DNA from: Euglena gracilis
Taxonomy: Eukaryota
DNA: 64,000 nucleotides
Direction of reading: 5' to 3'
Assembly (NCBI GenBank): GCA_039621445.1
Contig: CP154954.1
Coordinates: forward strand, 1,736,001-1,800,000
The notes beneath the pieces were generated by a model, which ran no database searches, was not told the origin of the DNA, and worked only from the letters and a program-made list of their open reading frames with translations. The translations under genes and the position numbers were made by a program. Of this stretch, positions 36,084-64,000 are shown in pieces. How positions within the stretch are numbered: position 1 is the first letter of the stretch; each line of letters starts with the position of its first letter.

Positions 36084-38175
36084 TTATAAAGGTCCAGAAA
36101 TGCCTTGTTTACGTATCATTAAAAAATGTCCTAACATAAAAGTAGCTGTTAACAAAGGTAAAACAAATGTATGTAAACTATAAAAACGAGTTAAAGTAGA
36201 CTGTCCCACACTAACACTTCCTCTCAATAACTCAACAATAAAATTTCCAATTAATGGAATAGCTTCGGGAACACCTGTTACAATTTTAACTGCCCAATAA
36301 CCAACTTGATCCCAAGGTAAAGAATAACCTGTAACACCAAAAGAAACAGTTAAAATTGCCAAAATTATACCCGTAACCCAAGTTAACTCTCTAGGTTTTT
36401 TAAACCCACCAGTTAAATAAACTCGGCAAACATGTAATATCATCATTAAAACCATCATACTAGCGGACCAACGATGAATTGAACGAATAAGCCACCCGAA
36501 ATTAACTTCATTCATAATATATTTAACAGAAAGAAAAGCTTCTGTAACAGTTGGACGATAATAAAAAGTCATTGCAAAACCAGTAGCTACTTGAATAATA
36601 AAACAAGTAAATGTTATGCCACCAAGACAATAAAAAATGTTTACGTGAGGAGGAACATATTTACTGCAAAAACTAGTCATTTAAAAAATGATTGTTTTCC
36701 AACCCTACAAGATTGAAAAATAACTAATCAAATAATCAAAAGGCTTTTTATAAAAAAATTATTATTAAAAAATAGTTTTATCGATCTTTTATATAAACTT
36801 TTAAAAAGTCTCTGAATTATAAAAAATTTATTTAGTATTATAAAAACAACAAATATAAATACATTCAATAAATATTTAAAAAAATAAAAATAACATTAAA
36901 TAATTAAAAAACATATATATTTTAAACAATTTAGAACTTTTTAAACTACTAATATTTTATCATAAACATTTTACTAACCAACAAATCTATAAAATTTCAA
37001 ATAAAAAAGTATCTATAATTTAAAACATAAAAAATTTTATAAAACAAATTAAAATGTAAAAAAAAATTTATTAATAAAAACAATTAATTATCTTAAAATT
37101 AAGACTAAATATTTATAAACTAAAGCATTTATTCATTAAGATTTTTGTAAATAAATAATCATAATCTAGAATTGAAAAATAATAATACAAACCAAATCGC
37201 ACTAACATCGTCAGCAATCGCTTGAATCTCCAATCTTTCCTCGTACAGGTAAGCAAGCTCCCTTAAAAACAAAACAAGATATAGATAATCATTTTGCTTT
37301 ATAATTCTTAAAAACGAATACCAGTTAAAATTCCATATTAACAAATACAACAAATCGCAATTAAAATAAGAATTTTATTGAATTTTTTCCTACCTTAATA
37401 AAACCGTTTAATAGAATCCTAAATATTATTTTTTAATTTTGTAAAAATATAAAAGAAATGATATTCAAATTATTATATCTTAAAAAATTAATTCAGAGAA
37501 GCTACAACTTAGAAAAACACAACTACAATTATTTAAAATGAATTAAAGTATAACTTTATTATAATACTTTATTCGCAAACTGAAAAAATATTACTACATA
37601 TACACAGCTTTTGTCAAAACTAAAATTATCTAAAATTAGATAAGCGATCTTTATAACTCGTAACAAAAATAAAAATTTTTATTTTCTTTTGAAACTTACA
37701 GGTAATTTTAAATATTGATTCTTTTAAGAAATAACATTTAATTTAATAAAAATTAAAATATATAAAAAATATTATGTATTTCCAATTATTTTTAATCAAT
37801 ATTTAAACTTAGATTAAAATAGTACTTAGAAATTTTTATTAAATTTTTGATTCAAATTATAATATCCTAAAACAAAAACATAAAACTTTAAGTTAACCCT
37901 TTTTTCAAAAAAAAAATAGTAAAAATTATACTGTAACAAACAAAGTTTTTTCCATTACCGAAAAAGTTTAACAAGCAAAAAATTTGCTATTTAACATACA
38001 AATGCTAAATTACGGAGCAATAAAATAATTAAAATTTTATAAATAACTTTCTAAATTTATATGAAATTAGGCTTCAAACTATCAAATAGCTAAAAAACGC
38101 TAAGTAAAAATCTTCAGGAATTATAACCTAATATGCTAAATTCGGTCCGCACAACCAATCGTAAACTCGACTCAT
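36084..38175 (-). CDS. petB: cytochrome b6 (inverted copy, intact frame, 2 introns)
   Basis: MSRVYDWF / [13 protein letters not shown] / [17 protein letters not shown]...[10 protein letters not shown]. Confidence 0.96.
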
Positions 38176-38440
38176 AAAAAGAGAAACTTATCAAACAAGA
38201 ATTAAAATTTCAAGTATGCATTATAAAGATAAAAGAATTCATTATACCTAACTTCATGCAATATAAATACACAAAAAATTTTATATTAAAAACTTAAAAT
38301 TCTCAAATATACGAATATAAATAAAACACATTAAATCAAAACCAACAATTTTCGAATTGGAATAAAAATTCTTTAATTTTAAAAAGTCAGCCAAAAATAA
38401 TATACTAAAATAAAAGTAATATAAATTTTTATTTAAAATA

Positions 38441-38566
38441 ATATCATTTTTATCAACTATTTTTTTAGGTTTTTTTATTATAAGTACAACAATATACTCA
38501 ATTTACATGGGATTTGGTCCAATGTCAAGAAAACTTAAAGATCCTTTTGAAGAACATGAAAATTAA
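38441..38566 (+). CDS. psbN: PsbN (start codon or first exon not resolved)
   Basis: ISFLSTIFLGFFIISTTIYSIYMGFGPMSRKLKDPFEEHEN*, with the PsbN C-terminal signature DPFEEH. Confidence 0.85.
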   Translation: MSFLSTIFLGFFIISTTIYSIYMGFGPMSRKLKDPFEEHEN

Positions 38567-38617
38567 AATAAAATAGGTAATTTCAAAAGAAAGTTAAAAA
38601 TTATTAAATTTAATATT

Positions 38618-38830
38618 ATGACAACTATTTCAAAAAACAAAACATCAAATTCTAAAGGTAAAACAACTACTTTAGGAACAATATTAAAACCTTTAAATTC
38701 TAAATATGGAAAAGTTCTTCCTGGCTGGGGGACAGCTGGAATAATGTTAATTTTTATGACTTTATTCGCAATTTTTTTAACAATAATTTTAGAAATATAC
38801 AACTCTTCAGTAATTCTTGACATTAAATAA
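38618..38830 (+). CDS. psbH: photosystem II PsbH
   Basis: [23 protein letters not shown]...[12 protein letters not shown]. Confidence 0.96.
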
Positions 38831-38975
38831 AATGAAATAAATAACAAATTAAAACTGTTGTGAAAATTTCATTTTATTTATTTTTTATTTCTTTTTCTTT
38901 TTAAAATTTTTATTAACTTTTTTATAAGTTAATAAAAATTAAATCACATCGAAAATTGAAAGATAATAAGAATAA

Positions 38976-40421
38976 TTATTTATTAATACGTGGAGATTCA
39001 CGGAAAAAAATAGCAAAAAAAATAACGCCTAAAGTACCTATCAATAGTTAAGTAAGGAAACCCTCCTAAAAGAACTTTACAAGTATTATACTATTACACA
39101 AAGCTCAAATATAAATTTTTAAAATAAAATAATATTAACAACTATTCTAGTAGTTAAAATCCTCATATATTTTAATATATATAATACGTTTTATAAACTT
39201 CAAAAATATTTATGAAAATTAAAAATTATATAAAACTCAATGTAAAAAAAAAGACTAAAAATAAAAAATAATTGTCACCAAACTATGCTTGATATGTATA
39301 TCACAAAGCTTTATAAATACACTAGAAATTTCTAAAAAAATAAAATTAATATAATTCGTATTGAAGAAAAATTACATATTTAAACAATTATAATTGATTT
39401 CGTTGAAAAAAATGAAAAAAACACTAATAAAGATTAAGTAATTACAGTAAAATAAAATTATACTAAAAGACCTAACAGAACTGCATTAAAAAGGAAAACG
39501 ACTACAGTAAAAAAATAATTTACAAAAAATACAAATTTTTCATAAATTTTATTGAAACTTCAAAATTTCAAAACATATCAATATTATCAACAAAAAAAAG
39601 CAATAAAATAATATTTACAACAAAAAATAATCAATCCAAAAAAAATCATCCTTAATTAAAATAAAAACAGTAAAATCAAATATAAGGTAAAAAAAATTCC
39701 CTAAAGAACCGGACAAGCTAATTCCTAAGCATCTGGCTCACCCAAAAAACTAAAATCATCAAAAGAATAAAGATAAAAAATCTTTACCCGCCTGAAATGA
39801 TATCGTGGACAATCCAAGATTAATAAAAAATTATCGATCAATTAAAATAACCATAAAAGTAATTATATGATACCTTTAATAAAAATTATATTTTTCAGAA
39901 ATCGTTTCTATCCCAAATCATCTTAATAAAAATTAATTCAAAAATAAAAGAATTAAATGTAATTACAATTTCCTCGACAAAAAGATATAACAACCGTGTA
40001 AAAGAACAAAAAAAAAAAGCACTTAAAAATAATTATTACATTAAAATATCGAAATTAAAAATTACAAAATAGTAAAAATTTCCTTTTCTACTAAATTAAA
40101 ATAAAAAAAATACGAAAAAATCAAATCAAAATAATAAAATATAAATTCACTACCAAACTATAAAATCTATAAAATTAGTTTTAATTGCTTAAAGTATAAA
40201 AACTCCATAAATTAAGTAAAGTAATATTCAAAAATACAAAATTAAAACATATAATCTTGTTTTGTCCTAGGTAAACCGCACAAAAATATACCCCAAAAAA
40301 AATTTAATAAAGGCGTTTATGAAAAGTCTTAATCCACCCTTTTATTAATTTAAATTTAATTACCTAAAGTAAAAAGAATACAACTTCGTAGCACACAGAA
40401 TGTATAAACTAAAGCTTCCAT
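38976..40421 (-). CDS. psbT: photosystem II PsbT (inverted copy) with ~1.35 kb complex intron
   Basis: Reverse complement of 41677-43123. Confidence 0.9.
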
Positions 40422-40483
40422 AAAATAAAAAATTTTCACAACTTTGCACATTTCCTAAAACAAATTTACTAATTAAATAATAA

Positions 40484-41040
40484 TTAAACTAATTCTTTCT
40501 TAGTTGTATCATCACCTAATTTTTCAAAAGTACCAAATTCAATCTCTTCCTCCAAATCAGGGTCAATACCAGCAAGCAAATATTTAAATAAAGTTCTTGC
40601 CCCATGCCAAATATGCCCAAAAAAGAAAATTAAAGCAAAAGACAAATGACCAAAAGTAAACCAGCCTCTTGGACTACTTCTAAAAACACCATCAGACTGT
40701 AAAATAGAACGATTAAAGTCAAAAATTTCTCCAAGCTGAGCACGTCGTGCATATCTTTTCACAGTAGCAGGATCATTAAAACTTAAAGTATCGAAACTAC
40801 CACCGAAGAAACGAACAGTAACGCCTACTTGTTCAATACTATATTTAGACTCAGCACGACGAAACGGAATATCGGCACGAACAACACCATTTTGATCTAA
40901 TAATATTACTGGAAACGTTTCAAAAAAAGTAGGCATACGACGAACAAACAATGAATTACCTTCCTTATCAATAAATACTGCATGACCTAACCATGCAGTC
41001 GCTATACCATCACCATTATTCATAGGACCAGAACGAAATT
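40484..41040 (-). CDS. psbB: psbB 3' fragment (left arm at the fold-back point)
   Basis: [11 protein letters not shown]...DDTTKKELV*; 5' two thirds absent. Confidence 0.9.
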
Positions 41041-41049: not shown

Positions 41050-41613
41050 ATGGGATTCTTTCGTTCTGGGCCTATGAATAATGGATATGGTATAGCGACT
41101 TCATGGTTAGGTCATTCAGTGTTTATTGATAAGGAAGGTAATTCATTGTTTGTTCGTCGTATGCCTACTTTTTTTGAAACGTTTCCAGTAATATTATTAG
41201 ATCAAAATGGTGTTGTTCGTGCCGATATTCCGTTTCGTCGTGCTGAGTCTAAATATAGTATTGAACAAGTAGGCGTTACTGTTCGTTTCTTCGGTGGTAG
41301 TTTCGATACTTTAAGTTTTAATGATCCTGCTACTGTGAAAAGATATGCACGACGTGCTCAGCTTGGAGAAATTTTTGACTTTAATCGTTCTATTTTACAG
41401 TCTGATGGTGTTTTTAGAAGTAGTCCAAGAGGCTGGTTTACTTTTGGTCATTTGTCTTTTGCTTTAATTTTCTTTTTTGGGCATATTTGGCATGGGGCAA
41501 GAACTTTATTTAAATATTTGCTTGCTGGTATTGACCCTGATTTGGAGGAAGAGATTGAATTTGGTACTTTTGAAAAATTAGGTGATGATACAACTAAGAA
41601 AGAATTAGTTTAA
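41050..41613 (+). CDS. psbB: psbB 3' fragment (right arm at the fold-back point)
   Basis: Same C-terminal CP47 sequence ending KKELV*, with a few substitutions next to the junction. Confidence 0.9.
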
Positions 41614-41676
41614 TTATTATTTAATTAGTAAATTTGTTTTAGGAAATGTGCAAAGTTGTGAAAATTTTTTATTTTT

Positions 41677-43123
41677 ATGGAAGCTTTAGTTTATACATTC
41701 TGTGTGCTACGAAGTTGTATTCTTTTTACTTTAGGTAATTAAATTTAAATTAATAAAAGGGTGGATTAAGACTTTTCATAAACGCCTTTATTAAATTTTT
41801 TGTGGGGTATATTTTTGTGCGGTTTACCTAGGACAAAACAAGATTATATGTTTTAATTTTGTATTTTTGCATATTACTTTACTTAATTTATGGAGTTTTT
41901 ATACTTTAAGCAATTAAAACTAATTTTATAGATTTTATAGTTTGGTAGTGAATTTATATTTTATTATTTTGATTTGATTTTTTCGTATTTTTTTTATTTT
42001 AATTTAGTAGAAAAGGAAATTTTTACTATTTTGTAATTTTTAATTTCGATATTTTAATGTAATAATTATTTTTAAGTGCTTTTTTTTTTTGTTCTTTTAC
42101 ACGGTTGTTATATCTTTTTGTCGAGGAAATTGTAATTACATTTAATTCTTTTATTTTTGAATTAATTTTTATTAAGATGATTTGGGATAGAAACGATTTC
42201 TGAAAAATATAATTTTTATTAAAGGTATCATATAATTACTTTTATGGTTATTTTAATTGATCGATAATTTTTTATTAATCTTGGATTGTCCACGATATCA
42301 TTTCAGGCGGGTAAAGATTTTTTATCTTTATTCTTTTGATGATTTTAGTTTTTTGGGTGAGCCAGATGCTTAGGAATTAGCTTGTCCGGTTCTTTAGGGA
42401 ATTTTTTTTACCTTATATTTGATTTTACTGTTTTTATTTTAATTAAGGATGATTTTTTTTGGATTGATTATTTTTTGTTGTAAATATTATTTTATTGCTT
42501 TTTTTTGTTGATAATATTGATATGTTTTGAAATTTTGAAGTTTCAATAAAATTTATGAAAAATTTGTATTTTTTGTAAATTATTTTTTTACTGTAGTCGT
42601 TTTCCTTTTTAATGCAGTTCTGTTAGGTCTTTTAGTATAATTTTATTTTACTGTAATTACTTAATCTTTATTAGTGTTTTTTTCATTTTTTTCAACGAAA
42701 TCAATTATAATTGTTTAAATATGTAATTTTTCTTCAATACGAATTATATTAATTTTATTTTTTTAGAAATTTCTAGTGTATTTATAAAGCTTTGTGATAT
42801 ACATATCAAGCATAGTTTGGTGACAATTATTTTTTATTTTTAGTCTTTTTTTTTACATTGAGTTTTATATAATTTTTAATTTTCATAAATATTTTTGAAG
42901 TTTATAAAACGTATTATATATATTTAAAATATATGAGGATTTTAACTACTAGAATAGTTGTTAATATTATTTTATTTTAAAAATTTATATTTGAGCTTTG
43001 TGTAATAGTATAATACTTGTAAAGTTCTTTTAGGAGGGTTTCCTTACTTAACTATTGATAGGTACTTTAGGCGTTATTTTTTTTGCTATTTTTTTCCGTG
43101 AATCTCCACGTATTAATAAATAA
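41677..43123 (+). CDS. psbT: photosystem II PsbT, exons 41677-41701 and 43053-43123
   Basis: Spliced product [31 protein letters not shown]. Confidence 0.93.
41702..43052 (+). mobile_element. complex group II twintron in psbT (1351 nt)
   Basis: Outer 5' GTGTG, inner GTGCG at ~41817, three domain V-like hairpins (~42359, ~42788, ~42993). Confidence 0.8.
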
Positions 43124-43268
43124 TTATTCTTATTATCTTTCAATTTTCGATGTGATTTAATTTTTATTAACTTATAAAAAAGTTAATAAAAATTTTAAAA
43201 AGAAAAAGAAATAAAAAATAAATAAAATGAAATTTTCACAACAGTTTTAATTTGTTATTTATTTCATT

Positions 43269-43481
43269 TTATTTAATGTCAAGAATTACTGAAGAGTTGT
43301 ATATTTCTAAAATTATTGTTAAAAAAATTGCGAATAAAGTCATAAAAATTAACATTATTCCAGCTGTCCCCCAGCCAGGAAGAACTTTTCCATATTTAGA
43401 ATTTAAAGGTTTTAATATTGTTCCTAAAGTAGTTGTTTTACCTTTAGAATTTGATTTTTTTTTTTTTGAAATAGTTGTCAT
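43269..43481 (-). CDS. psbH: photosystem II PsbH
   Basis: Mirror of 38618-38830 (KNKT read as KKKK in a poly-T run). Confidence 0.95.
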
Positions 43482-43532
43482 AATATTAAATTTAATAATT
43501 TTTAACTTTCTTTTGAAATTACCTATTTTATT

Positions 43533-43658
43533 TTAATTTTCATGTTCTTCAAAAGGATCTTTAAGTTTTCTTGACATTGGACCAAATCCCATGTAAATTG
43601 AGTATATTGTTGTACTTATAATAAAAAAACCTAAAAAAATAGTTGATAAAAATGATAT
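43533..43658 (-). CDS. psbN: PsbN (start not resolved)
   Basis: Mirror of 38441-38566. Confidence 0.85.
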   Translation of the reverse strand: MSFLSTIFLGFFIISTTIYSIYMGFGPMSRKLKDPFEEHEN

Positions 43659-43925
43659 TATTTTAAATAAAAATTTATATTACTTTTATTTTAGTATATT
43701 ATTTTTGGCTGACTTTTTAAAATTAAAGAATTTTTATTCCAATTCGAAAATTGTTGGTTTTGATTTAATGTGTTTTATTTATATTCGTATATATTTGAGA
43801 ATTTTAAGTTTTTAATATAAAATTTTTTGTGTATTTATATTGCATGAAGTTAGGTATAATGAATTCTTTTATCTTTATAATGCATACTTGAAATTTTAAT
43901 TCTTGTTTGATAAGTTTCTCTTTTT

Positions 43926-46014
43926 ATGAGTCGAGTTTACGATTGGTTGTGCGGACCGAATTTAGCATATTAGGTTATAATTCCTGAAGATTTTTACTTA
44001 GCGTTTTTTAGCTATTTGATAGTTTGAAGCCTAATTTCATATAAATTTAGAAAGTTATTTATAAAATTTTAATTATTTTATTGCTCCGTAATTTAGCATT
44101 TGTATGTTAAATAGCAAATTTTTTGCTTGTTAAACTTTTTCGGTAATGGAAAAAACTTTGTTTGTTACAGTATAATTTTTACTATTAAAAAAAAAAAAAA
44201 AGGGTTAACTTAAAGTTTTATGTTTTTGTTTTAGGATATTATAATTTGAATCAAAAATTTAATAAAAATTTCTAAGTACTATTTTAATCTAAGTTTAAAT
44301 ATTGATTAAAAATAATTGGAAATACATAATATTTTTTATATATTTTAATTTTTATTAAATTAAATGTTATTTCTTAAAAGAATCAATATTTAAAATTACC
44401 TGTAAGTTTCAAAAGAAAATAAAAATTTTTATTTTTGTTACGAGTTATAAAGATCGCTTATCTAATTTTAGATAATTTTAGTTTTGACAAAAGCTGTGTA
44501 TATGTAGTAATATTTTTTCAGTTTGCGAATAAAGTATTATAATAAAGTTATACTTTAATTCATTTTAAATAATTGTAGTTGTGTTTTTCTAAGTTGTAGC
44601 TTCTCTGAATTAATTTTTTAAGATATAATAATTTGAATATCATTTCTTTTATATTTTTACAAAATTAAAAAATAATATTTAGGATTCTATTAAACGGTTT
44701 TATTAAGGTAGGAAAAAATTCAATAAAATTCTTATTTTAATTGCGATTTGTTGTATTTGTTAATATGGAATTTTAACTGGTATTCGTTTTTAAGAATTAT
44801 AAAGCAAAATGATTATCTATATCTTGTTTTGTTTTTAAGGGAGCTTGCTTACCTGTACGAGGAAAGATTGGAGATTCAAGCGATTGCTGACGATGTTAGT
44901 GCGATTTGGTTTGTATTATTATTTTTCAATTCTAGATTATGATTATTTATTTACAAAAATCTTAATGAATAAATGCTTTAGTTTATAAATATTTAGTCTT
45001 AATTTTAAGATAATTAATTGTTTTTTAATAAATTTTTTTTTACATTTTAATTTGTTTTATAAAATTTTTTATGTTTTAAATTATAGATACTTTTTTATTT
45101 GAAATTTTATAGATTTGTTGGTTAGTAAAATGTTTATGATAAAATATTAGTAGTTTAAAAAGTTCTAAATTGTTTAAAATATATATGTTTTTTAATTATT
45201 TAATGTTATTTTTATTTTTTTAAATATTTATTGAATGTATTTATATTTGTTGTTTTTATAATACTAAATAAATTTTTTATAATTCAGAGACTTTTTAAAA
45301 GTTTATATAAAAGATCGATAAAACTATTTTTTAATAATAATTTTTTTATAAAAAGCCTTTTGATTATTTGATTAGTTATTTTTCAATCTTGTAGGGTTGG
45401 AAAACAATCATTTTTTAAATGACTAGTTTTTGCAGTAAATATGTTCCTCCTCACGTAAACATTTTTTATTGTCTTGGTGGCATAACATTTACTTGTTTTA
45501 TTATTCAAGTAGCTACTGGTTTTGCAATGACTTTTTATTATCGTCCAACTGTTACAGAAGCTTTTCTTTCTGTTAAATATATTATGAATGAAGTTAATTT
45601 CGGGTGGCTTATTCGTTCAATTCATCGTTGGTCCGCTAGTATGATGGTTTTAATGATGATATTACATGTTTGCCGAGTTTATTTAACTGGTGGGTTTAAA
45701 AACCTAGAGAGTTAACTTGGGTTACGGGTATAATTTTGGCAATTTTAACTGTTTCTTTTGGTGTTACAGGTTATTCTTTACCTTGGGATCAAGTTGGTTA
45801 TTGGGCAGTTAAAATTGTAACAGGTGTTCCCGAAGCTATTCCATTAATTGGAAATTTTATTGTTGAGTTATTGAGAGGAAGTGTTAGTGTGGGACAGTCT
45901 ACTTTAACTCGTTTTTATAGTTTACATACATTTGTTTTACCTTTGTTAACAGCTACTTTTATGTTAGGACATTTTTTAATGATACGTAAACAAGGCATTT
46001 CTGGACCTTTATAA
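43926..46014 (+). CDS. petB: cytochrome b6, exons approx. 43926-43948, 44858-44898, 45432-46014; 1-nt homopolymer frameshift near 45700
   Basis: Cytochrome b6 sequence; split ORFs 45419-45715 and 45736-46014 are one frame in the mirror copy. Confidence 0.94.
43949..44857 (+). mobile_element. petB intron 1, 909 nt (group II, likely twintron)
   Basis: 5' GTGCG; length about twice a typical Euglena group II intron; internal domain V-like AGCTGTGTA at ~44492. Confidence 0.75.
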
Positions 46015-46081
46015 AAATTCTTTGTGTTTATGATTTTTACGATGTATTTCTTAATTATAAGGAACCCTTGAGCCTTGTTTA

Positions 46082-49124
<3,043 letters not shown>

Positions 49125-49274
49125 AATTATTATTGACGTATTGTAAATAATTTTTAACTATATCTTACTTAAAAAGCTTTTATTAATATTTATTTAGTTA
49201 TGCTTTGTTGAGTAAACATAATGTTTCCACTTTGTTTTTTTAGTTTGACTACGAAAAATTATAATTTTTTTACA

Positions 49275-51100
49275 ATGACATTAGATGTATCAATTAGTAC
49301 GTTACGAAGTTGCTTTTAGTTTATTAGGTATAAGTTAAAATAAAAGATAAGAAATAAAATTTTATTTATGTGTTTTTTTTAAGTTAAGTAAATTTTCCTT
49401 AAATTGTATGTTTTTGGCTATTCATATTAATTAAAAAATTGGTTAATCTAATTGGTTAATCTTAATATTTTCAATAATTTGTTAATAAGTTTAGTAATTT
49501 TTCAAGTAGAACGTAAATAGGTTTTATTTTGGATTTTTTTTTAATAAAGAATAAACTTTTGACATATTTTTATTTAAAATTAAATGTTTAAGCTGTATGT
49601 TTTTTTTTACTTGTACAGTTTTTTAAGAGAAATTTTAGTTCGCTAATATATTTCTTTTTTCATTAAATTCTAGTTTAAATCTTTTTTCTTGAGTATTTAT
49701 TTTTCAAAAGTTAATTTTTTAAATAATTTTCGTTTTTGGGGATTTTATTCTCTTTTTTAAACTTTTCTGTATGAAAAGTAAAATTATTTTATTTTTTGGT
49801 AATTGAAATTTATTTATTATTTTAGTAGACCAATAAAAGCAAAGAGAATAGGTTTTAATTTAATTTTCTATAAATTTTTATTCTAAAGAAAATTTTACAT
49901 TTTAGTTTTAATAAGTCTTGTTTTAGAGTTTTATATAATATAAAACAACCTAACCTTTTTTGCGATAGTATGTTGAAAAGCTAAATAAATCAACAATTTT
50001 TGTTTAGTTTGTGAATAAAATTTTCAAAATTGAATTTATATTTTCTACTTTACTTATTCCTGAAAGAGTTTTTTGGGAAAAACGAGTTGAAGAAATTATT
50101 CTTCCTACTTTAAGTGGTCAGATGGGGGTTCTTAAAGACCATGTGTGACACATTATTAAAACGTTTGTTAATTTTATTAATTATAATTTTTTGATAAATG
50201 CTTGTTTGAGATTTAACTTTACTTTTACTTTTAACCATATTAGTTAATTATTTTTATTTTCTGCATTAACATTTTGTTTGTGCGTGGTAGCTTTGAATAT
50301 TTTCTAAAATTTAAAATTTACTTTTTTATAAATTATTTTTTATAAATAAGAAAAATTTAAAATTTTAAGATTAATATAATTTATAGTTTATTTTGAAAAT
50401 GTATATTTAAGTCTTGTTTTAGAAGAATATATTTAAACTGTTATTTTATAACTATTTAAAGTGTTTTTACATGTTTTAGAAAAAATTTTTAATAGTTTTA
50501 ATTTTTTTAAAAACAATACTTGATAAACATAATTTGTAAGATATAATATTTGAATCTAAAAAATTTTTAAATTTGTATGCAATGGTAAGGAATGTGTATT
50601 TTTATGTAAATTATTTACAAAATTTTTGTTTTTTTTTAGTACTTTTGATTCTATCACAATTTAGTTTTAGTCAATTTTTAAGCAAATTTTAAAAGATTTT
50701 TTGTTAAATGCCGTATGAGATTTAAATCTCCCGTACTGTATTGTTGGGGAAAAAATTAACTTAATTTATTAATTTTTAATGATAAATTTTTTTCTATCTA
50801 AATATTCCAATATTGACTGGATTAGATATAGGTATAATCTTAGTTCGTCAAAAGTCTTCTTCCGATTGGACTAGTTTGGTTGTAACAGGAGGTTTTGCAT
50901 TAATTAATAGCAATAACGTTACTATATTAGTCAATGAAGCAGAATTTGGTTCCGAAATTAATGTAGAACAAGCACAGATTTCTTATAATTCATCTAAACA
51001 TGCTTTAGAAATGAATAAAGATATTAAGAGAAAATTTGAATTAACTTTAAATTTAAAAAAAGCACGTGCTAGATTCCAGGTCACTCAACTTAAAAAGTAG
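49275..51100 (+). CDS. atpE: ATP synthase CF1 epsilon subunit, exons approx. 49275-49296, 50054-50142, 50804-51100
   Basis: MTLDVSI / IPERVFW...LPTLSGQMGVLKDH / IPILTGLDIG...KKARARF. Confidence 0.93.
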
Positions 51101-51371
51101 TTTAATTTATTGTTTTATTAAATTATACGTTTTTAATTTATGTTGATAGATTTTTTATAATAAAAATTTTTTCAATTATTAATAGTTTAAAATTATGTTT
51201 GTTTTATAGTATATTATTACTTAAACTATAAAATAGTGTAGTTAGTGTATTGAAACTGACAGTTTGATTTAAACGTTTTTGGTTTCGATTCACTCATTTA
51301 TTCTTTAATTTAATTAAATTAAAATTCAAAATTCGACTTTTAGGCAAGAATTTAAGTAAAAAAAAAATGTT

Positions 51372-52089
51372 ATGTTATCCGAATATGATAATCTAAACTT
51401 TGAAAAGAGCGTTGAAGGTAAAGGTTCTTTTCTTAATAAAAACCAAATAGAATCTTATTTGGCCTTACGAAAAAAGAAAGGAAAAATATATAATTTAGAT
51501 TCTGAATTTTGGCGTGCTTTTTGTGAATCTCACAATATTAATATGGAATCTATTTTAAATTTATATATATCGAATAAATCTATTTCTAGTAAGGATTGTT
51601 AAAATACTATCTTATATTGTTGGACGAGATTACCTTAAAGGCAGAACCGCTAACTTTTATGCTTACATTAAAGTGGATAAACGATTAGATACGCGCTCGA
51701 CTCGTTTTTTGGATTTGAGATTAAAAAAAGACTGTGAAGAGGTTACAGTTTGTGGAAATTATAGCGCAGCTAAGTCAGAAGAATATTCTATCGATTATAT
51801 AATAAAAATGGTTTTAAGTCAGAGAGCATATGGTATACAAGATTTTACTGATTCGTTAGTAATTAGTCCGTGTTTGTCTGTAAAATTAGATGATCATTAC
51901 CAAATGTTGTCACTTTGGAACCGCATGATAAAACTAGCTGAAAAAGGCAATATTTTTAAGGCTCTATCTCTTTTAAAAAAAGAAAGGCCAGATTACTACA
52001 TCAAAAAATTTGTAGCAATTAAAAAAAATTTAAATGCAATTTTTATGTCTTTTAAAAATGATAAAAAATTAAATAGGGAGGTTTTATGA
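51372..52089 (+). pseudogene. degenerate geminivirus-Rep-like protein (HUH-fold plus oligomerisation region, no helicase), one frameshift near 51600
   Basis: ORFs 51372-51602 and 51673-52089 join after removing one T; contains KRLDTRSTRFLDL (GRS-like), CGNYSAAKS..IDYIIK (motif III) and RMIKLAEKG..ALSLLKKERP; clearly paralogous to the downstream Rep. Confidence 0.65.
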
Positions 52090-53930
52090 ATTTATTAAAT
52101 ACGAACAAAAATAACATTGATAATAATATGAGACGTATTTCATCAAAAAAAGTTTTTTTAACCTATTCTTATTGTTCCGCAGATCTTTCAGAAATTTTAA
52201 ATTTTTTTAAAAATAAATTTGAAGTAAAATATGGACTAGTTGATTATGCGTTGGTAAGATAGTTTCATAAAACCGGATACCCTCATGTACACTCATATTT
52301 CGTTTTTATTAAAAAAATAGACACTAAGGCAGCAAATTTTTTTGATATATATGTTGATTCTAAAACTTATAGTGCATATGTTCAAACAGTTAATAACGAG
52401 AAAGATTTGTTGGACTATTTAACAAAACAAATATTTAACTTTGTAGATGCTTCAAAAAATTTCATGGCTTCTCCATCAATTTTGAAAAAGTATGGTAAAT
52501 ATTTTGAATATTGTCCATTAGAAGAAAGGATGATTGAATTAGCAAAAAAAGGAGAGATAGCGGATGCTATGTTGTTGTTTGAAAAAGAAAAACCTTCTGA
52601 ATTTGTATATAAAGGTGATGCTATTGAAAAACGACTTAGAAACATATATTTAAGCACAAGGTTAGGAGTTAAAGCAAAAATTAATTTTAATGACTATGTG
52701 ATACCTCGAGATTTAAGGTGGATGTTAGACATTTATGAATCTTATCTGAATATGGGTGAAAATAAAGTATTTTTAATTTTAGGCGGTGAGCTTAGGTATT
52801 TAATAGATTTTTTTGAATCTTATTTGCAATTCATCAGCTTTTATCTTCTAGTAGTAAAGGCAGCTAAGAATCTACTGTGATTTAGATATAATTGTAATTA
52901 CTATGCGATAATTTTTTCATACTCTAGCATTTTAGAGTATCAAAATGTAGATGAGCTAAAAAATTTATTTAACTCTTTACAAACAAGGTTAAAAGCTCAT
53001 AATAGAATAAATAGTTTTAAAGTACTTTTATTTCCTTTTTTATATAAAGCTATAATGTAGTCAAAAAGCTGTAAAGTTGTGGAACAATTTCTAAAAGAAA
53101 AAGGAATTGAAATGCAAGGCATACTACCTTAGCAATTAAATGCCGATGATAAATATTCCCCCACATCATATTCAGAAATGGAAAAATCAAGAATACAGAG
53201 AACTTGAAAGTAAAAACTAAAGTTATATTCAAGAATTCTTAAAAAAGCTATATAGAATGATGAAAATGAAGGAAATGATAATCACAAATACTCTACGTTT
53301 TTATTATATGTTATATATTTATCGTAGGGAATAACTAATTTGTTAAAATATGTTAGATTTATTCTGGGCGGTTAGTGGTAACATAATTTGAAAGCCCTCT
53401 GACATCAAAGTTCGAATTATTCAAGCACTGAGGTTTTTTTAATAAGATTTTGCAATTTTAAAGGAGAGTAGTAATAAGGAAGCTTAGAGAAGATTAATAA
53501 TGATTTAGAAATACTTGTCATTACCGATGCGATAATTTTTCAGACTACTAGCATTTAGAGTATCAATGTAGATGAGCTAAAAAATTTATTTAACTCTTTA
53601 GAAACAACGTTAAAAGTTCATAATCGAAAAAATAGTGTTAAAGTACTTTTATCTCCTGCTTTACCAAAAGCTATAATGTCGTCAAAACCTTATAAAGTTT
53701 TGGAACAATTTTTTAAAGAAAAAGGAATTGAAATGGAAGGCATACTACCTTATCAATTAAATGCCGATGATAAATTACTTCCCCCACATTTTCATAATTC
53801 AGAAATGGAAAAATCAAAGGAATACAGAGAACTTGAAAGTAAAACTAAAGTTTATATTCAAGAATTCTTAAAAAAAGCTAATATGAATGATGAAAATGAA
53901 GGAAATGATAATCAAAAAAATACTAATTAA
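52086..53930 (+). pseudogene. geminivirus/CRESS-type rolling-circle replication initiator (HUH endonuclease plus degenerate SF3 helicase); in-frame TAG at 52260, 3' half disrupted by a tandem duplication
   Basis: Manual translation from 52086: ...RRISSKKVFLTYSYC...ALVR*FHKTGYPHVHSYF...KIDTKAANFFDI...DLLDYLTK; GGGAGG Shine-Dalgarno upstream. Confidence 0.8.
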
Positions 53931-54110
53931 TACGTTTTTATTATATGTTATTATTTTATTAGTAATAAAAATATTACTAATTTGTTATTTGTTATAAATA
54001 TGTTATATTTATTCTAGGGCGGAAAATTAGTGGTAACATTAATTTGTTAAAAAATGCCTCTTGACATCAAAAGTTCGAATTAATTTTGAAAAGCATGAGG
54101 CATTTTTTTA
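52800..54110 (+). repeat. imperfect ~0.65 kb tandem duplication (approx. 52800-53440 and 53441-54110)
   Basis: Shared strings GATGAGCTAAAAAATTTATTTAACTCTTTA (52950, 53572) and TGATGAAAATGAAGGAAATGATAATCA (53258, 53888). Confidence 0.85.
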
Positions 54111-54114
54111 ACAA
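54044..54114 (+). terminator. long stem-loop downstream of the Rep-like gene (terminator or origin element)
   Basis: Arms TTGTTAAAAAATGCCTC / GAGGCATTTTTTTAACAA with inner TCAAAA/TTTTGA stem, ending in a T-run. Confidence 0.55.
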
Positions 54115-54537
54115 TTATTTTAAGTTTAATAAAACTTAAAATTTTTTTTTAATAAATTTTTTTTTTTCTGTCCGCCCGGAGAATAAAAAAATTTAGAAAA
54201 TTATTGCTCTATTATTTTTGGGAGAATAAAATGAACAATTCAAAAACAAAACTTCAAAAAAAAAAATAAAGTTCGCTGAGAATAAAATACCAGCGGACAC
54301 GTTTTTGTTATTTTTTGTTATAAAGTTGTGATTAAAATCATTATAAATATTATTACTAGTATAATTATTATCAAATTAATTTTTATTTTATTGCTAACTT
54401 GTTATTAAATTGTTATTAAATAGCTAATTTGTTGTATGAGCATTAAGCGTTAAATTAATTGGGTAGGTCAACAATAAACTATTGTTGAAAGAATATAGTT
54501 ATAGTTAATTGGACAAATTTTTTATGGGAGAATAATT

Positions 54538-55719
54538 ATGGTTCAAAAATTAAGAAAAAAATACAAATTCAAAATTAACACCACAAGTTCGAGATATTAT
54601 GGTAGTTATAATATAACACGTAATTGGAGAATTTTAATAAGGACAAATTTTCAATCTTTAATAGAAATGGATTATTCTTTTATTAAAAAATGGCATGCAA
54701 TAATAAACGACGATAAAATTTCTTTTATTATGTATACCATATGCAAATACGTGGATTTTCAGAAAGAAACCGATATTTTTATTAAAGCTTACCTCGAACT
54801 AAAGAAAAATTGTCGGCCAAAATATTTAGAAGACTTGTTTAGTTTTGATAAAAATACAAATATAAGTATCGAAAAAGCTAAAGGGGATAGTCCTGGCAAT
54901 GTTGGTGGTTTTATTATTAATTGCCGAGACCCCGAAGAGGAACTTTTTTGGAATAGAATACCGCGCTATGAATCTAAAAATAATAACTGTTTAAGTTTTA
55001 AATTTATTACTCAATATAATTTAATTGAGAAAGCAAGGGGAAATTATTTTCTACCTAAAATTTTCCTTGAAGTTTTAAAAAAAGGTCCGGAAGAGATTGA
55101 TAAAGAAAAAAGAAAAACTGTTTTAGCAAAAAAAATCGATAATGACGAAGAAATAGAAAAAATAGAAATAAAAAAAGAAAAACAATTTGAAATTAAGAGC
55201 TTTTTCGAGGATTCAGAATTTTTAGCAATAACCGAAAAATATACAAAAAAGTGTGAGGATTTAATAAATATTAACAATAAAGGGAAAAAAATAAGAGATT
55301 TATTTTGCAATTATATTTTAGAATTATTAATTCTAGAAATAAATATTTTAAATTCTCAAAGTAAACCAAAATATTCGGATGTTTTTATTTGTACTTATAA
55401 AAAAAAAAAGAACAATAATGAAATAGAGTGGTATTTTAATTGGATGTCTATTGATAGAATCCTTAAACAATTTTTATATAAATCAATTAAACCGTGGCAA
55501 AATAAAAATATTGACGATATTAATCAAGGAGAAATTTATAATATAATTACTAATAAATCACTTACAGATAATACAATAAATTCTGTTAAACGTTCTTTTC
55601 AAAATAGATTGAATGAAAATGTTAACTTAACGAACGTAAGAAAATCATACAAAAAAATAAAATTTGTTTCGTTTAGTTTAACTAAGTTTTATAGCAATGA
55701 AAATAACGTTTTTTTGTAA
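54538..55719 (+). CDS. hypothetical protein, 393 aa, intron-less
   Basis: Long open frame in very AT-rich DNA; GGGAG Shine-Dalgarno 7 nt upstream of the ATG; no motif recognised. Confidence 0.75.
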   Translation: MVQKLRKKYKFKINTTSSRYYGSYNITRNWRILIRTNFQSLIEMDYSFIKKWHAIINDDKISFIMYTICKYVDFQKETDIFIKAYLELKKNCRPKYLEDLFSFDKNTNISIEKAKGDSPGNVGGFIINCRDPEEELFWNRIPRYESKNNNCLSFKFITQYNLIEKARGNYFLPKIFLEVLKKGPEEIDKEKRKTVLAKKIDNDEEIEKIEIKKEKQFEIKSFFEDSEFLAITEKYTKKCEDLININNKGKKIRDLFCNYILELLILEINILNSQSKPKYSDVFICTYKKKKNNNEIEWYFNWMSIDRILKQFLYKSIKPWQNKNIDDINQGEIYNIITNKSLTDNTINSVKRSFQNRLNENVNLTNVRKSYKKIKFVSFSLTKFYSNENNVFL

Positions 55720-55814: not shown

Positions 55815-56267
55815 ATGTATTCGGTAGAACCTGTAATATTAATACATACTGATTCCAAAGATAAAATTCTTCAAGAGACATATCTAAAATTAGAATGTAA
55901 AGCAGTAAAATCACAGCTATATTTAAATATATATGTGATATTTGATGAAAAAAGAGTATGGACTAAAAATTTAGTTGAAAGCTTTTTTTCTACTATTAAA
56001 AATGGTAAAATTTTAAATATATCAAACGTACCAAAACTAGGAGGTCTTTGTTTTTGTTATGTTCTTAATAACCTTTTGCTAAAAGCAAATAAAAAAAATC
56101 AATTAGCTGAAATTAAAATATATCAGCATACAAAATATGAAATTCCTTCCAAATATAAAATCAAATTTATCAACGAATCGCCATTATTTTTAAGAGAATA
56201 TACTGGGTCTTTGAACTTCTTATATATTTTACTTAGTATGTTACTAGATAATATAACTAATAAATAA
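55815..56267 (+). CDS. hypothetical protein, 150 aa
   Basis: Open frame co-oriented with the 393-aa ORF; no motif recognised. Confidence 0.55.
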   Translation: MYSVEPVILIHTDSKDKILQETYLKLECKAVKSQLYLNIYVIFDEKRVWTKNLVESFFSTIKNGKILNISNVPKLGGLCFCYVLNNLLLKANKKNQLAEIKIYQHTKYEIPSKYKIKFINESPLFLREYTGSLNFLYILLSMLLDNITNK

Positions 56268-56748
56268 TTAAGTTATTATATTATTCCATTAAAATTTTTT
56301 AAAGTCCACCAAGAATAAAATTCTAGTGGACACGTTTGTTATTAAATTGTTATTATTAGTATAATTATTATAAAATTATTTAATTAAAAATATAAATAAT
56401 TTAGTTAGCTAGTTGTTATTAAAATGTTATTAACTTTTTTAAAGTTCACCGAGAATAAAATCCTAGTGGACACGTTTTTGTTATTTTTATTGGTTTTAGT
56501 TTAAGGTCAGCAGGAACAACTTTTATAACCTTTTATTATGGTATCGTACTTTAATAAATCTAAATTTAAGGAATTCTGCAACATATTCTAAAGATAAAGG
56601 GCATTTTGGAGATGTAAGAAATACTTTCCTAGCTGACAGTCGGTATTTAGCGTTTTTACCAACGTTTTTTTCAAATTTATTAAAGGAACTTTTCTTTGAT
56701 TTTACTTTTTTCTAACGTAATTTTTTGATTAGTTTTATTTGGAGTTAT

Positions 56749-56798: not shown

Positions 56799-57134
56799 TA
56801 TTATTATTATTATTAGGGGGCAATTTACTTAGCAAATTCTCGGTCGTTACTGACAAAACGGGGTATGGTTTTGTAAACATTAACCACGCAATAACACAAT
56901 CACAATATTGCACTAATAACTTAAAAAAGTCACTCACATGATATTATTACTAAATAAATGTAATCTGCCTCAGGCAAACGGTTTTGAACTATGTGTATGA
57001 AAAGTAATGAGAATTCTTTACAATTAAAGGGATGTAACATGTAAATCGTTAAATACGACTGCATACAACTCCTATTTAAGATACTATGTACGGGAAATAA
57101 GCAAAAAATAATACATTATTCAAGGAAAACTACT

Positions 57135-57344
57135 ATGGTACGTAAAAAAGATATATTAAATGAAAGGTTAAAAAATTACACAATAGAAACAGACGTGTCC
57201 CGTAAGGTGAGGCAAAAAGTTGCGTTCCGTTTAGCGGCTAAAAACATATTTTTGATGTATAATAAAGTTTCATCTTCATTTACTGTGGAGGATATTAGTT
57301 ATTCTTTACTTGAGAAGCTGAAGCCATATGGTGTATTATCGTAG
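57135..57344 (+). CDS. hypothetical small protein, 69 aa
   Basis: ATG start with AAGGA 8 nt upstream; basic N-terminus; no recognised homology. Confidence 0.35.
   Translation: MVRKKDILNERLKNYTIETDVSRKVRQKVAFRLAAKNIFLMYNKVSSSFTVEDISYSLLEKLKPYGVLS

Positions 57345-57536: not shown

Positions 57537-64000
<6,464 letters not shown>

What the first reader, a model, noticed from the sequence alone, without database searches (positions are those of the whole stretch)
51372..52089. Second, catalytically dead Rep paralog overlapping the first by ATGA (RepA-like)
Removing one T at ~51600 (GAT TGT T AAA) fuses two listed ORFs into a protein of about 238 aa that aligns with the downstream Rep. YNLDSEFWRAFCESHNINMESIL aligns with RRISSKKVFLTYSYCSADLSEIL. 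SYIVGRDYLKGRTANFYAY aligns with DYALVR*FHKTGYPHVHSY. KRLDTRSTRFLDL aligns with KKIDTKAANFFDI, and IDYIIK with LDYLTK. RMIKLAEKGNIFKALSLLKKERP..AIKKNLNAIF aligns with RMIELAKKGEIADAMLLFEKEKP..AIEKRLRNIY. The metal-binding HxH is lost, the catalytic YxxK is kept, and the protein stops before any helicase domain. Its TGA overlaps the next ATG (ATGA at 52086-52089), which suggests translational coupling. Inference: a two-gene Rep cassette with a truncated regulatory or hetero-oligomer partner, reminiscent of the helicase-less RepA of mastreviruses.
Basis: partly seen in the sequence, partly recalled or inferred. Interest (0 to 1): 0.85.

Follow-up and report, generated by a model that had tools for sequence, protein, structure and literature searches.

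The report
Dead Rep gene relic in Euglena plastid
This stretch is the remains of a virus- or plasmid-type DNA-replication gene that has lost its cutting site and its motor domain; it sits beside three other remnants of the same gene family in a chloroplast genome of the Euglena gracilis type, an unusual place for such genes.

Summary
The observation largely holds. Frame 51601-52086 (A2) is homologous to the downstream Rep-like gene B (z=20.8, 0 of 1000 shuffles; BLASTP E=1e-14). It matches a profile of 81 full-length geminivirus-like Reps at E=2.6e-33. The two metal-binding His are Asn and Tyr, motif III Tyr/Lys is kept, no helicase follows, and its TGA overlaps B's ATG. Three points fail.

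- The upstream frame (A1, 51372-51599) shows no Rep similarity.
- B is not an intact Rep. It has a TAG at a conserved Glu codon, no P-loop, and is partly the "uncharacterized" ORF281 of Euglena gracilis chloroplast DNA.
- A is no closer to B (27%) than to outside Reps (up to 34%).

Two more Rep fragments lie at 56.5-57.3 kb.

A's frames stay open far longer than neutral AT-rich DNA allows. The central domain is fully conserved while the active site is gone. So A evolved as a non-catalytic coding gene and is now probably freshly disabled by a one-base frame offset.

An active RepA/Rep cassette is not supported. The contig has assembly oddities, so the frame offset needs independent reads. I found no paper reporting Rep relics in a euglenid plastid genome. 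Interest is moderate.

The parts
51360..51599 (+). A1: upstream open frame (80 codons stop-to-stop, ATG at 51372). It has no recognisable Rep similarity and probably was the N-terminal part of gene A.
   Evidence: Searches give the frame. Searches show no similarity to B or to the family profile. In one search, an open run of 80 or more codons ending within 45 nt of the start of another frame arose in 21 of 20000 simulations. The first 169 nt are also present as an inverted copy at 30554-30722.
51559..52086 (+). A2: open frame of 176 codons. The Rep-homologous part is 51598-52056 (profile positions 75-218: back half of the nuclease domain plus the central helical domain).
   Evidence: One search gives E=2.6e-33 (113 bits) and one search gives 103.6 bits. 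One search gives a model with pLDDT 91.9. Searches show Rep-like folds. In one search, 0 of 300 simulations gave an open piece of 176 or more codons.
51652..51660 (+). Degenerate motif II: Asn-Phe-Tyr where the family has His-hydrophobic-His.
   Evidence: H18 and H20 nearly invariant in the family. (columns 93 and 95 are H in 98% and 95% of members; A2 has N and Y. Column 85 is E in 94% and A2 has D. Column 87 is H in 84% and A2 has L).
51796..51807 (+). Motif III retained: Tyr66-Ile-Ile-Lys69.
   Evidence: K69 invariant, Y66 nearly invariant. (columns 138 Y and 141 K kept).
51805..52056 (+). Central helical domain. In full-length relatives it lies between nuclease and helicase. It is fully conserved in A.
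   Evidence: 8 of 8 columns with at least 70% conservation are kept, and 11 of 13 at 50% or more. predicts helices at residues 105-154.
52076..52081 (+). Shine-Dalgarno-like GGGAGG inside A's last codons, 4 nt before B's ATG.
   Evidence: GGGAGG occurs only twice outside the C-rich run, and the other copy is in 23S rRNA. Of 23 GGAGG sites, only this one directly precedes an ATG.
52086..52089 (+). ATGA: B's start codon overlaps A's stop codon.
52086..52877 (+). B: the longer Rep-derived gene. It has motif I (FLTY), a TAG at 52260-52262 in place of the conserved Glu, HUH at 52284-52292, motif III and the central domain. The P-loop is missing near 52776-52799. Its C-terminal half is the Euglena gracilis 'ORF281'.
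   Evidence: Pfam Gemini_AL1 at 33 bits against a cut-off of 24; geminivirus Rep structures at about 1e-6; 97% identity to P0001. Searches give the profile matches and motif states.
52878..54130 (+). Two tandem, mutually divergent copies (about 621-630 nt each) of the degenerate helicase part of B. Copy 1 carries stops. Copy 2 holds the 84-aa ORF 53676-53930.
   Evidence: 84.7% identity over 589 nt with 30 gaps; 53559-53927 matches profile positions 307-410 at E=0.005. One search gives the collinear ORF281 sequence.
56550..56708 (-). C: third Rep fragment, motif I region only (FLTSPKC).
   Evidence: E=6e-9, profile positions 32-74..
57117..57341 (+). D: fourth Rep fragment, motif I region only (FLMYNKV).
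   Evidence: E=3.8e-7, profile positions 18-78..

Best explanation
Segment 51372-52089 is a gene derived from a geminivirus-like (Pfam Gemini_AL1 type, Cressdnaviricota-like) rolling-circle replication initiator. It lies in the atpE-rbcL spacer of a plastid chromosome of the Euglena gracilis type.

Shown:
- It keeps the back half of the HUH nuclease fold (GNY, motif III Tyr/Lys) and the whole central helical domain.
- It has Asn/Tyr for the two metal-binding His and Asp/Leu for the conserved Glu/His.
- It has no recognisable motif I and no helicase, so it cannot nick an origin or unwind DNA.
- It is one of at least four mutually divergent Rep-derived pieces in this spacer. It is not a recent copy of its neighbour B, which is itself disabled by a TAG and the loss of its P-loop.

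Inferred:
- Rep-encoding plasmid- or virus-like elements integrated here, probably more than once.
- Both of A's frames are open far beyond what neutral AT-rich DNA allows, and only the active site has decayed. So A lost catalysis while still under selection as a protein. It would then have been a DNA-binding or oligomerising, non-catalytic Rep-like partner or competitor, either in the donor element or after integration.
- Today it is most likely a freshly inactivated pseudogene, split by a one-base frame offset within 51559-51602.
- The ATGA overlap and the SD-like site are left over from a compact, prokaryote-style gene arrangement. They are not evidence of a working pair.
For: Homology:
- Family profile against A2: E=2.6e-33.
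- A2 against B: z=20.8, 0 of 1000 shuffles, and E=1e-14.
- B passes Pfam Gemini_AL1.
- 17 of 20 relatives or fragments tested pass it. The 3 that fail are short fragments.
- The family profile hits geminivirus Rep structures at 1.9e-28.
- The A2 model has pLDDT 91.9. It matches wheat dwarf virus Rep with prob 0.99 and TM 0.56 by target, and begomovirus Reps over 146-164 columns with best E=3.4e-4.

Dead active site and missing parts.

Selection in the past:
- 0 of 300 simulations gave an open piece of 176 or more codons.
- Under neutral substitution, 12% of replicates stay stop-free at 5% divergence and 1.7% at 10%.
- The abutting 80-codon frame arose in 21 of 20000 simulations.
- Conserved columns kept: 8 of 8 in the central domain against 5 of 11 in the nuclease part (Fisher p=0.018).

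Relic cluster: fragments C and D, and B's TAG and lost P-loop.

Not a recent duplicate:
- 37/138 identity to B against up to 47/139 to outside Reps.
- The two are not sisters in the tree.
- There is no DNA similarity.

Frame offset probably real:
- The 138-aa form is on 8 contigs in the protein collection.
- No 89-284 aa variant spanning the junction was found.
Against: - The contig is unreliable in places. It has a 5.7-kb C-rich run and two long inverted duplications whose arms differ by short indels. There are 9 gap openings per 10.5 kb, and one arm ends at 51540, inside A1. So the frame offset could be an assembly error and A an intact 238-codon ORF.
- Open frames plus a fully conserved central domain are also what a still-functional gene would show.
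- No orthologue of A from another genome was found, so no dN/dS test was possible.
- The tree rests on 143 columns, with supports of 0.37-0.86.
- The structure model is driven by the family alignment. The PDB Foldseek E-value is only 0.26.
- The source of the relatives is unknown, because that library has no names or genomic context.
Confidence: 0.55

Rival explanations
1. Plain neutral pseudogene. A is a fragment of a once-active Rep that integrated very recently in an already defective form, or it simply has not yet collected stops. It never served as a non-catalytic protein.
For: - It sits among clearly decayed fragments C and D and next to the broken gene B.
- It has a frame offset, and no motif I or helicase.
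- No orthologues were found.
- HUH-degenerate Rep-like ORFs also occur among database relatives. 10 of 139 hits that cover the nuclease part lack a His: 7 of 41 helicase-less against 3 of 98 others. These could all be debris.
Against: - Neutral decay deep enough to replace E85, H87, H93 and H95 and erase motif I should have introduced several stops. The simulation gives a mean of 3.9 stops at 10% divergence and 8.6 at 30% in 176 codons.
- None is present in 176 + 80 codons.
- Loss is concentrated in the active site while 8 of 8 central-domain columns persist.
Confidence: 0.2
2. A is a live plastid protein and the frame offset is an assembly error, or only the A2 part is made. It would be a domesticated, catalytically dead Rep. 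It could bind Rep-type origins or Rep oligomers, for example as a dominant-negative block to invading Rep plasmids, or serve some plastid DNA function. ORF281 would be a second such protein.
For: - Long open frames.
- Central domain conserved 8 of 8 in both A and B while their nuclease parts decay in different places (Fisher p=0.018 and 0.045).
- An SD-like site precedes B.
- The contig's indel discrepancies make a false frameshift possible.
Against: - The 138-aa form, not a fused form, is what the protein collection holds, on 8 contigs.
- No orthologue of A was found elsewhere.
- No promoter or terminator signal stands out: 19 promoter-like sites against 22.9 +/- 6.0 in shuffles, and 0 terminators.
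Confidence: 0.17
3. One reading: a working, translationally coupled cassette of a RepA-like regulator and an active Rep that replicates a plasmid-like element.
For: - ATGA overlap and SD-like site.
- A ends where mastrevirus RepA ends relative to the helicase (the RepA features are recalled).
Against: - B has an in-frame TAG, no P-loop and a degenerate, duplicated helicase part.
- The reference ORF281 annotation starts after the TAG.
- There is no enrichment of the geminivirus-type nonanucleotide: 80 matches against 70 +/- 10 expected.
- A and B are only 27% identical.
Confidence: 0.04
4. Assembly artefact: the locus or its arrangement does not exist in the real plastid genome.
For: C-rich run, palindromic duplications, and the noisy duplicated segment 52878-54130.
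Against: - B's C-terminal half is identical over its first 121 residues to an independently deposited Euglena gracilis protein said to lie between rbcL and atpE.
- The window places the locus between atpE and rbcL.
- A2 is a clean 176-codon frame with strong family homology.
Confidence: 0.04

Closest known systems
Geminivirus/genomovirus-type Rep (Pfam PF00799 Gemini_AL1; solved nuclease domains 6q1m/6we0 of wheat dwarf virus and 1l2m of TYLCV)
   Same: Same fold and motif order. The family profile hits these structures at 1.9e-28 to 1.5e-24. The A2 model superposes on 6we0 at 2.7 A over 89 columns. Motif III Tyr/Lys is present.
   Different: A lacks motif I, both HUH histidines and the SF3 helicase. 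A2 alone gives no Pfam or PDB sequence hit. It lies in a plastid chromosome, not a small circular replicon, and no capsid gene or origin hairpin was found.
Mastrevirus RepA (features recalled, not tested)
   Same: A Rep-related protein that stops before the helicase and keeps the central region.
   Different: RepA is made from the same gene as Rep and shares its N-terminus and catalytic motifs. A is a separate, 27%-identical gene without motifs I and II.
Euglena gracilis chloroplast 'Uncharacterized 33.1 kDa protein in rbcL-atpE intergenic region' (ORF281; P0001)
   Same: It is the immediate neighbour, being the C-terminal part of B. It is 97% identical over the 138 residues matched and identical over its first 121 residues. 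Like A it is Rep-derived and keeps the central domain.
   Different: ORF281 has no Pfam domain assigned because it starts after the nuclease domain. It carries the degenerate helicase part that A lacks. In the window that part is duplicated and interrupted.
Geminivirus-related replicase genes of red-algal (Porphyra/Pyropia) plasmids and their copies in organellar and nuclear genomes; phytoplasma pCRESS9 plasmids
   Same: Gemini-like Reps on non-viral replicons in algae, with relics in organelle genomes. Lee et al. 2016 (PMC4814812, section 8 read) cite a Phytophthora mitochondrial orf98. Kazlauskas et al. 2019 (PMC6668415, passages read) give the wider context.
   Different: No euglenid case is mentioned in the parts read. 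There was no tblastn hit of B in 72,556 bacterial plasmid records. A pattern-limited scan of bacterial and archaeal genomes found no relative. Relatedness to the red-algal plasmid Reps themselves was not tested, because no such sequences were at hand.

Membership tests
HUH rolling-circle Rep of the Gemini_AL1 / CRESS-DNA type | Significant sequence similarity to the family | tested here: met
   A profile of 81 full-length relatives against A2 gives E=2.6e-33, positions 75-218. However, A2 alone does not reach Pfam Gemini_AL1 even at E<=1.
HUH rolling-circle Rep of the Gemini_AL1 / CRESS-DNA type | Motif I (FLTY-type strand) | tested here: not met
   No frame upstream of 51598 matches profile positions 34-74. 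A1 scores 1.5 bits, within the shuffle range.
HUH rolling-circle Rep of the Gemini_AL1 / CRESS-DNA type | Motif II: two metal-binding histidines (HUH) | tested here: not met
   A2 has N and Y at columns that are His in 98% and 95% of members.
HUH rolling-circle Rep of the Gemini_AL1 / CRESS-DNA type | Motif III: catalytic Tyr with Lys (YxxK) | tested here: met
   Y66 and K69 at 51796-51807.
HUH rolling-circle Rep of the Gemini_AL1 / CRESS-DNA type | HUH nuclease fold | tested here: inconclusive
   The alignment-driven model has pLDDT 91.9. Against 6we0 it gives prob 0.99, TM 0.56 by target, but E=0.26. Viral Rep models give a best E of 3.4e-4. The first strand, which carries motif I, is missing from the modelled piece.
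HUH rolling-circle Rep of the Gemini_AL1 / CRESS-DNA type | C-terminal SF3 helicase with Walker A and B | tested here: not met
   A stops at profile position 218 of 451. Neighbour B also lacks the Walker A columns 257-260.
HUH rolling-circle Rep of the Gemini_AL1 / CRESS-DNA type | Nicking of a cognate origin (activity) | not testable with these tools
   This needs a biochemical assay. The geminivirus-type nonanucleotide is not enriched in the window: 80 matches against 70 +/- 10.
Mastrevirus-style RepA | Shares its N-terminus and catalytic motifs I-III with Rep and is made from the same gene (recalled definition) | tested here: not met
   A is a separate gene, 37/138 identical to B, without motifs I and II.
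Mastrevirus-style RepA | Ends before the helicase and keeps the central region | tested here: met
Translationally coupled gene pair | Overlapping stop/start with a ribosome-binding site in the upstream gene's end | tested here: met
   ATGA at 52086-52089 and GGGAGG at 52076-52081.
Translationally coupled gene pair | Both reading frames intact | tested here: not met
   There is a frame offset in A within 51559-51602 and a TAG in B at 52260-52262. The frame offset is not verified against reads.

The most novel reading that the evidence does not exclude
The Euglena plastid keeps catalytically dead Rep-derived proteins as working genes. These are A (or its A2 part) and ORF281, and both retain the central oligomerisation-type domain. 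They could poison or repress incoming Rep-encoding plasmids or viruses as dominant negatives, or they could have been recruited to plastid DNA maintenance. That would be a domesticated CRESS-type Rep in an organelle genome.
Probability: 0.12. Interest if true: 0.7.

Novelty: new member of a known kind. Interest (0 to 1): 0.45.

Why it matters
Foreign DNA in plastid genomes is rare. Lee et al. 2016 make this point, and the replication-related remnant they describe in red-algal plastid genes is a type-B polymerase domain. Here a secondary green plastid of a model protist carries at least four remnants of geminivirus-like rolling-circle initiators.

This gives an identity to the long-"uncharacterized" ORF281. 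It also points to Rep-encoding elements that once lived in, or reached, the euglenid plastid.

The pattern of active sites lost while the central domain and reading frames are kept makes one question testable. Organelles may retain dead replication initiators for a reason, or we may be seeing very young fossils. In eight text searches I found no paper reporting this, so it may be unreported. It remains a relic, not a new mechanism.

Tried and rejected
- A1 as the motif I region: rejected.
- Pfam, PHROGs and PDB sequence searches with A1 or A2 alone: no significant hit.
- Word-based homologue search for A2 at near and shorter lengths: only its own 138-aa cluster was found.
- The listing of cluster members: the database was switched off, so the sources of P0001 and P0002 stayed unseen.
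- tblastn of B against bacterial plasmids: no match.
- Scan of bacterial and archaeal genomes with a 6-protein alignment: 19 pattern matches, none confirmed. The first, 28-protein alignment was too diverse for the tool.
- Geminivirus-type nonanucleotide: not above chance.
- Promoter and terminator scans: nothing above shuffles.
- IQ-TREE with 1000 bootstraps timed out. FastTree was used instead.
- A first MAFFT run timed out and was rerun with faster settings.
- Continuation of fragment D beyond 57341: it looked Rep-like by eye, but the profile search with stops read as X did not extend the match, so it is not claimed.
- ORF393 (54538-55719): the Atlas gave only weak leads to small Rep clusters, with scores of 0.78. 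The profile search gave nothing significant.
- Hallick et al. 1993 could not be read because it is not held.
- The preprint on the plastid proteome says 48 of 67 plastid-encoded proteins were detected.
- No complex prediction was run. I do not claim binding, and paralogous domains tend to pass by likeness.
So the genomic context of the relatives, including tandem Rep pairs elsewhere, stayed unchecked.
Full report
**Setting.** The window is plastid DNA of the Euglena type. It holds the tRNA cluster Tyr-His-Met-Trp-Glu-Gly (that this order is typical of Euglena is recalled). It also holds psbB/psbC, rps4, rpoB/C1/C2, petB and atpB, and a split atpE at 50011-50148 / 50813-51100. rbcL exons start at about 61.3 kb. 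The finding therefore lies in a spacer of about 10 kb between atpE and rbcL. The C-terminal half of the downstream gene is 97% identical to a UniRef protein named 'Uncharacterized 33.1 kDa protein in rbcL-atpE intergenic region', Euglena gracilis (P0001, 281 aa).

**The observation.** ORFs 51372..51602 (76 aa; A1) and 51673..52089 (138 aa) are real. The second frame is open from 51559, giving 176 codons (A2), so the two frames overlap over 51559-51602 with a one-base offset.
- A2 against the downstream gene B (52086-52877, TAG read as X) scores 161 against 36.0 +/- 6.0 for shuffles. That is z=20.8, with 0 of 1000 shuffles reaching it. BLASTP gives E=1e-14 and 36/131 identities.
- A1 is a different matter. 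Against B it scores 26 against 31.6 +/- 5.4, and 904 of 1000 shuffles reach it. Against the family profile it scores 1.5 bits, while shuffles reach 8.4.
- The ATGA overlap at 52086-52089 is real.

**What the family is.** B passes Pfam Gemini_AL1 at 33 bits against a cut-off of 24 (E=6.3e-8, residues 17-115). It also hits geminivirus Rep nuclease structures (6q1m at 1.5e-6).
- A full HMMER search of 1.84 billion representatives with B found 376 proteins at E<=1e-3 and 69 at E<=1e-10.
- The full-length hits are 330-600 aa. They carry FLTYP.C, H.H.Y, HGNY, Y..K, a central helical region, Walker A (G.GKT), Walker B (DD) and motif C.
- Of 20 tested, 17 pass Gemini_AL1. The three that fail are short fragments: P0017 is below threshold, and P0003 and P0046 give no hit.
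- A profile of 63 sequences (A2 and the B2 piece of B plus 61 of the relatives) hits wheat dwarf virus and TYLCV Rep structures at 1.9e-28 to 1.5e-24.
- The Atlas places one member, P0012, among Cressdnaviricota Rep clusters.

**What A is.** A profile built from the 81 hits of 330-600 aa was run over all 3114 stop-to-stop pieces of the window.

| Piece | Coordinates and strand | E-value | Profile positions |
|---|---|---|---|
| B2 | 52263-52877 (+) | 5e-45 | 86-254 |
| A2 | 51559-52086 (+) | 2.6e-33 | 75-218 |
| B1 | 52077-52259 (+) | 2.1e-13 | 34-84 |
| C (new) | 56711-56526 (-) | 6e-9 | 32-74 |
| D (new) | 57045-57341 (+) | 3.8e-7 | 18-78 |
| Helicase remnant | 53559-53927 (+) | 0.005 | 307-410 |

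At the columns conserved in at least 70% of the family, A2 reads as follows.
- It has D, L, N and Y at E85, H87, H93 and H95, so the metal site is gone.
- It has R at K103 and C at H123.
- It keeps D113, G124, N125, Y126, Y138 and K141.
- It keeps all 8 central-domain columns (K141, S155, L178, A179, G182, A187, P196, L210).

An AlphaFold model of A2 with the family alignment has pLDDT 91.9.
- Its first 89 columns superpose on the wheat dwarf virus Rep domain at 2.7 A, with prob 0.99 and TM 0.56 by target, but E=0.26.
- Against viral models the top hits are geminivirus and CRESS Reps over 146-164 columns, with best E=3.4e-4.
- The model leans on the alignment, so this shows compatibility with the fold, not independent proof.

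**B is not a working Rep.**
- It has a TAG exactly at the 94%-conserved Glu85 column.
- It has lost HGNY (it reads SAYV).
- It has no residues at Walker A columns 257-260.
- Its helicase part is degenerate. ORF281 reads 'YDAIIFSD' where relatives have '..AIIFDD'.
- In the window that part is present twice in tandem (52878-53500 and 53501-54130). The copies are 84.7% identical with 30 gaps, and copy 1 carries stops.
- ORF281 as deposited starts at the first ATG after the TAG, which fits the TAG being present in that independent sequence too. This is an inference.

**A and B are not close copies.**
- They share 37/138 identical positions. A2 shares up to 47/139 with outside Reps, and its best BLASTP hit among the 151 fetched proteins, after its own ORF, is P0004 at E=3.6e-21.
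- In a FastTree of 82 sequences and 143 columns they fall in one 9-member clade with support 0.78 but are not sisters. P0003 and P0017 were left out of that tree as too short.
- There is no DNA-level similarity between A, B, C and D. B1 and C are 35% identical. D shows no significant match to B1 (E=2.1) and only a 16-residue match to C.
- So the spacer holds at least four old, mutually divergent Rep derivatives. Repeated integration of related elements is the simplest reading (inferred).

**Was A a gene after it lost catalysis?** Three results say yes.
1. In first-order Markov simulations of the local 25% GC DNA, 0 of 300 three-kb sets gave an open piece of 176 or more codons. The mean piece was 10.9 codons.
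2. Neutral substitution on A2's own DNA leaves 39%, 12%, 1.7% and 0.1% of 2000 replicates stop-free at 2, 5, 10 and 20% divergence. Replacing four conserved active-site residues and erasing motif I by drift should therefore have left stops.
3. An open run of 80 or more codons in another frame ending within 45 nt of a fixed point arose in 21 of 20000 simulations. So A1 was very probably part of the same ORF.

Loss is also uneven: 5 of 11 conserved nuclease columns are kept against 8 of 8 central ones (Fisher p=0.018). B shows the same skew, 6 of 11 against 8 of 8 (p=0.045). At the 50% threshold the figures are p=0.077 for A2 and p=0.002 for B.

Among the database relatives, 10 of 139 that cover the nuclease part lack a His. 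These are 7 of 41 helicase-less proteins and 3 of 98 others. So short HUH-degenerate Rep-like ORFs recur, but without genomic context I cannot say whether they are genes or debris.

**Is the frame offset real?** The contig has problems.
- There is a 5.7-kb C-rich run at 18083-23759, which is 92% C.
- There is an inverted duplication of 1-4307 and 5308-9613 at 99.63% identity.
- There is a second inverted duplication of 30554-41038 and 41059-51540 at 99.65% identity, with 20 mismatches and 9 gap openings. It ends inside A1 and joins it to a truncated 23S rRNA.
- Arm differences include homopolymer-length changes, so a false one-base indel is possible.

Against an error: the protein collection holds the 138-aa form on 8 contigs, and it holds no 89-284 aa form spanning the junction. 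I rate the offset as probably real, but it is unverified.

**Other features.**
- GGGAGG occurs only twice outside the C-rich run. One copy is in 23S rRNA and the other is 4 nt before B's ATG, inside A's last codons. Of 23 GGAGG sites, none other directly precedes an ATG. This points to a prokaryote- or organelle-style expression signal inherited with B.
- No origin-like nonanucleotide enrichment was found (the motif is recalled), and no promoter or terminator signal above shuffles.

**Literature.** Eight text searches found no paper linking Euglena plastid DNA with Rep, geminivirus-like or CRESS sequences. They paired Euglena or euglenophyte terms with Rep, geminivirus, CRESS, Cressdnaviricota, ssDNA virus, orf281 or replication-associated protein. 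One search paired red-alga and plastid terms with geminivirus, Rep and plasmid.
- Lee et al. 2016 (PMC4814812; passages and section 8 read) describe geminivirus-related replicases on red-algal plasmids and relatives in nuclear and organellar genomes. The word 'Euglena' does not occur in the main text.
- Kazlauskas et al. 2019 (PMC6668415; passages read) group geminivirus and genomovirus Reps with phytoplasma pCRESS9 and P. pulchra plasmid Reps.
- Hallick et al. 1993 is not held.
- The plastid proteome preprint (passages read) reports 48 of 67 plastid-encoded proteins detected. The list is in a closed supplement, so expression of ORF281 or A stays unknown.

**Verdict.** The functional model of an active RepA/Rep cassette does not hold, because the partner is itself disabled and the two are distant relatives. 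The best reading is a former non-catalytic Rep-like gene, now probably just broken, inside a small graveyard of integrated Rep elements in the Euglena plastid genome. A still-live domesticated dead Rep is not excluded.

Noticed in passing
window 18083-23759: A run of about 5.7 kb that is 92% C (5204 C, 444 T, 18 A, 10 G). It lies between rpoC1 and rpoB pieces and is open in four frames. It looks like an assembly or read artefact rather than biology.
   Followed up: partly
window 1-4307 / 5308-9613 and 30554-41038 / 41059-51540: Two long inverted duplications at 99.63% and 99.65% identity. Their arms differ by a few substitutions, short indels and one flipped A9/T9 tract. The second joins a truncated 23S rRNA 3' end plus 5S (29784-30578) to an inverted copy of the start of A1. 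Its centre lies in a psbC 3' fragment that also matches 3747-4432. The likely cause is fold-back or chimeric assembly.
   Followed up: partly
window 56550-56708 (-) and 57117-57341 (+): Two further Rep N-terminal fragments (motif I region only: FLTSPKC and FLMYNKV), divergently oriented. Both are as distant from A and B as from outside Reps.
   Followed up: partly
window 52878-54130: Tandem duplication (period about 621-630 nt) of the degenerate helicase part of ORF281. The deposited ORF281 reads like copy 1 at its start and copy 2 at its end. Copy 2 differs from it by many small indels.
   Followed up: partly
window 54538-55719 and 55815-56267: ORFs of 393 and 150 codons in the same spacer. 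Neither has a Pfam or PHROG family above the curated cut-offs; ORF393 gave only weak Pfam matches, E=0.012 and 0.024. The Atlas gives only weak leads (0.78) from ORF393 to small Rep clusters. They are unusually long open frames for 22% GC DNA.
   Followed up: partly
window 58003-60448: About 2.4 kb of degenerate internal repeats, roughly 72% self-similar, with a 387-codon open piece of low complexity. It lies just upstream of rbcL.
   Followed up: no
window 50149-50812: atpE appears split by an intron-sized insert of about 660 nt between 50148 and 50813. Rfam group II intron domain hits lie elsewhere, at 3326-3399 and 6216-6289.
   Followed up: no
protein P0053 (database relative, source unknown): A 967-aa protein made of seven tandem Gemini_AL1 nuclease domains. 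Several of them have the first HUH histidine replaced (for example PYLHAY, PDLHAY). So tandem multiplication with partial loss of the metal site occurs elsewhere in this family.
   Followed up: no
proteins P0003, P0017, P0046 (database relatives, source unknown): Short ORFs that are 89%, 56% and 81% identical to parts of B. P0017 has Glu where B has TAG and shares B's loss of HGNY. P0046 shares the lost P-loop. They look like B orthologues in related plastid genomes. No counterpart of A was found.
   Followed up: partly
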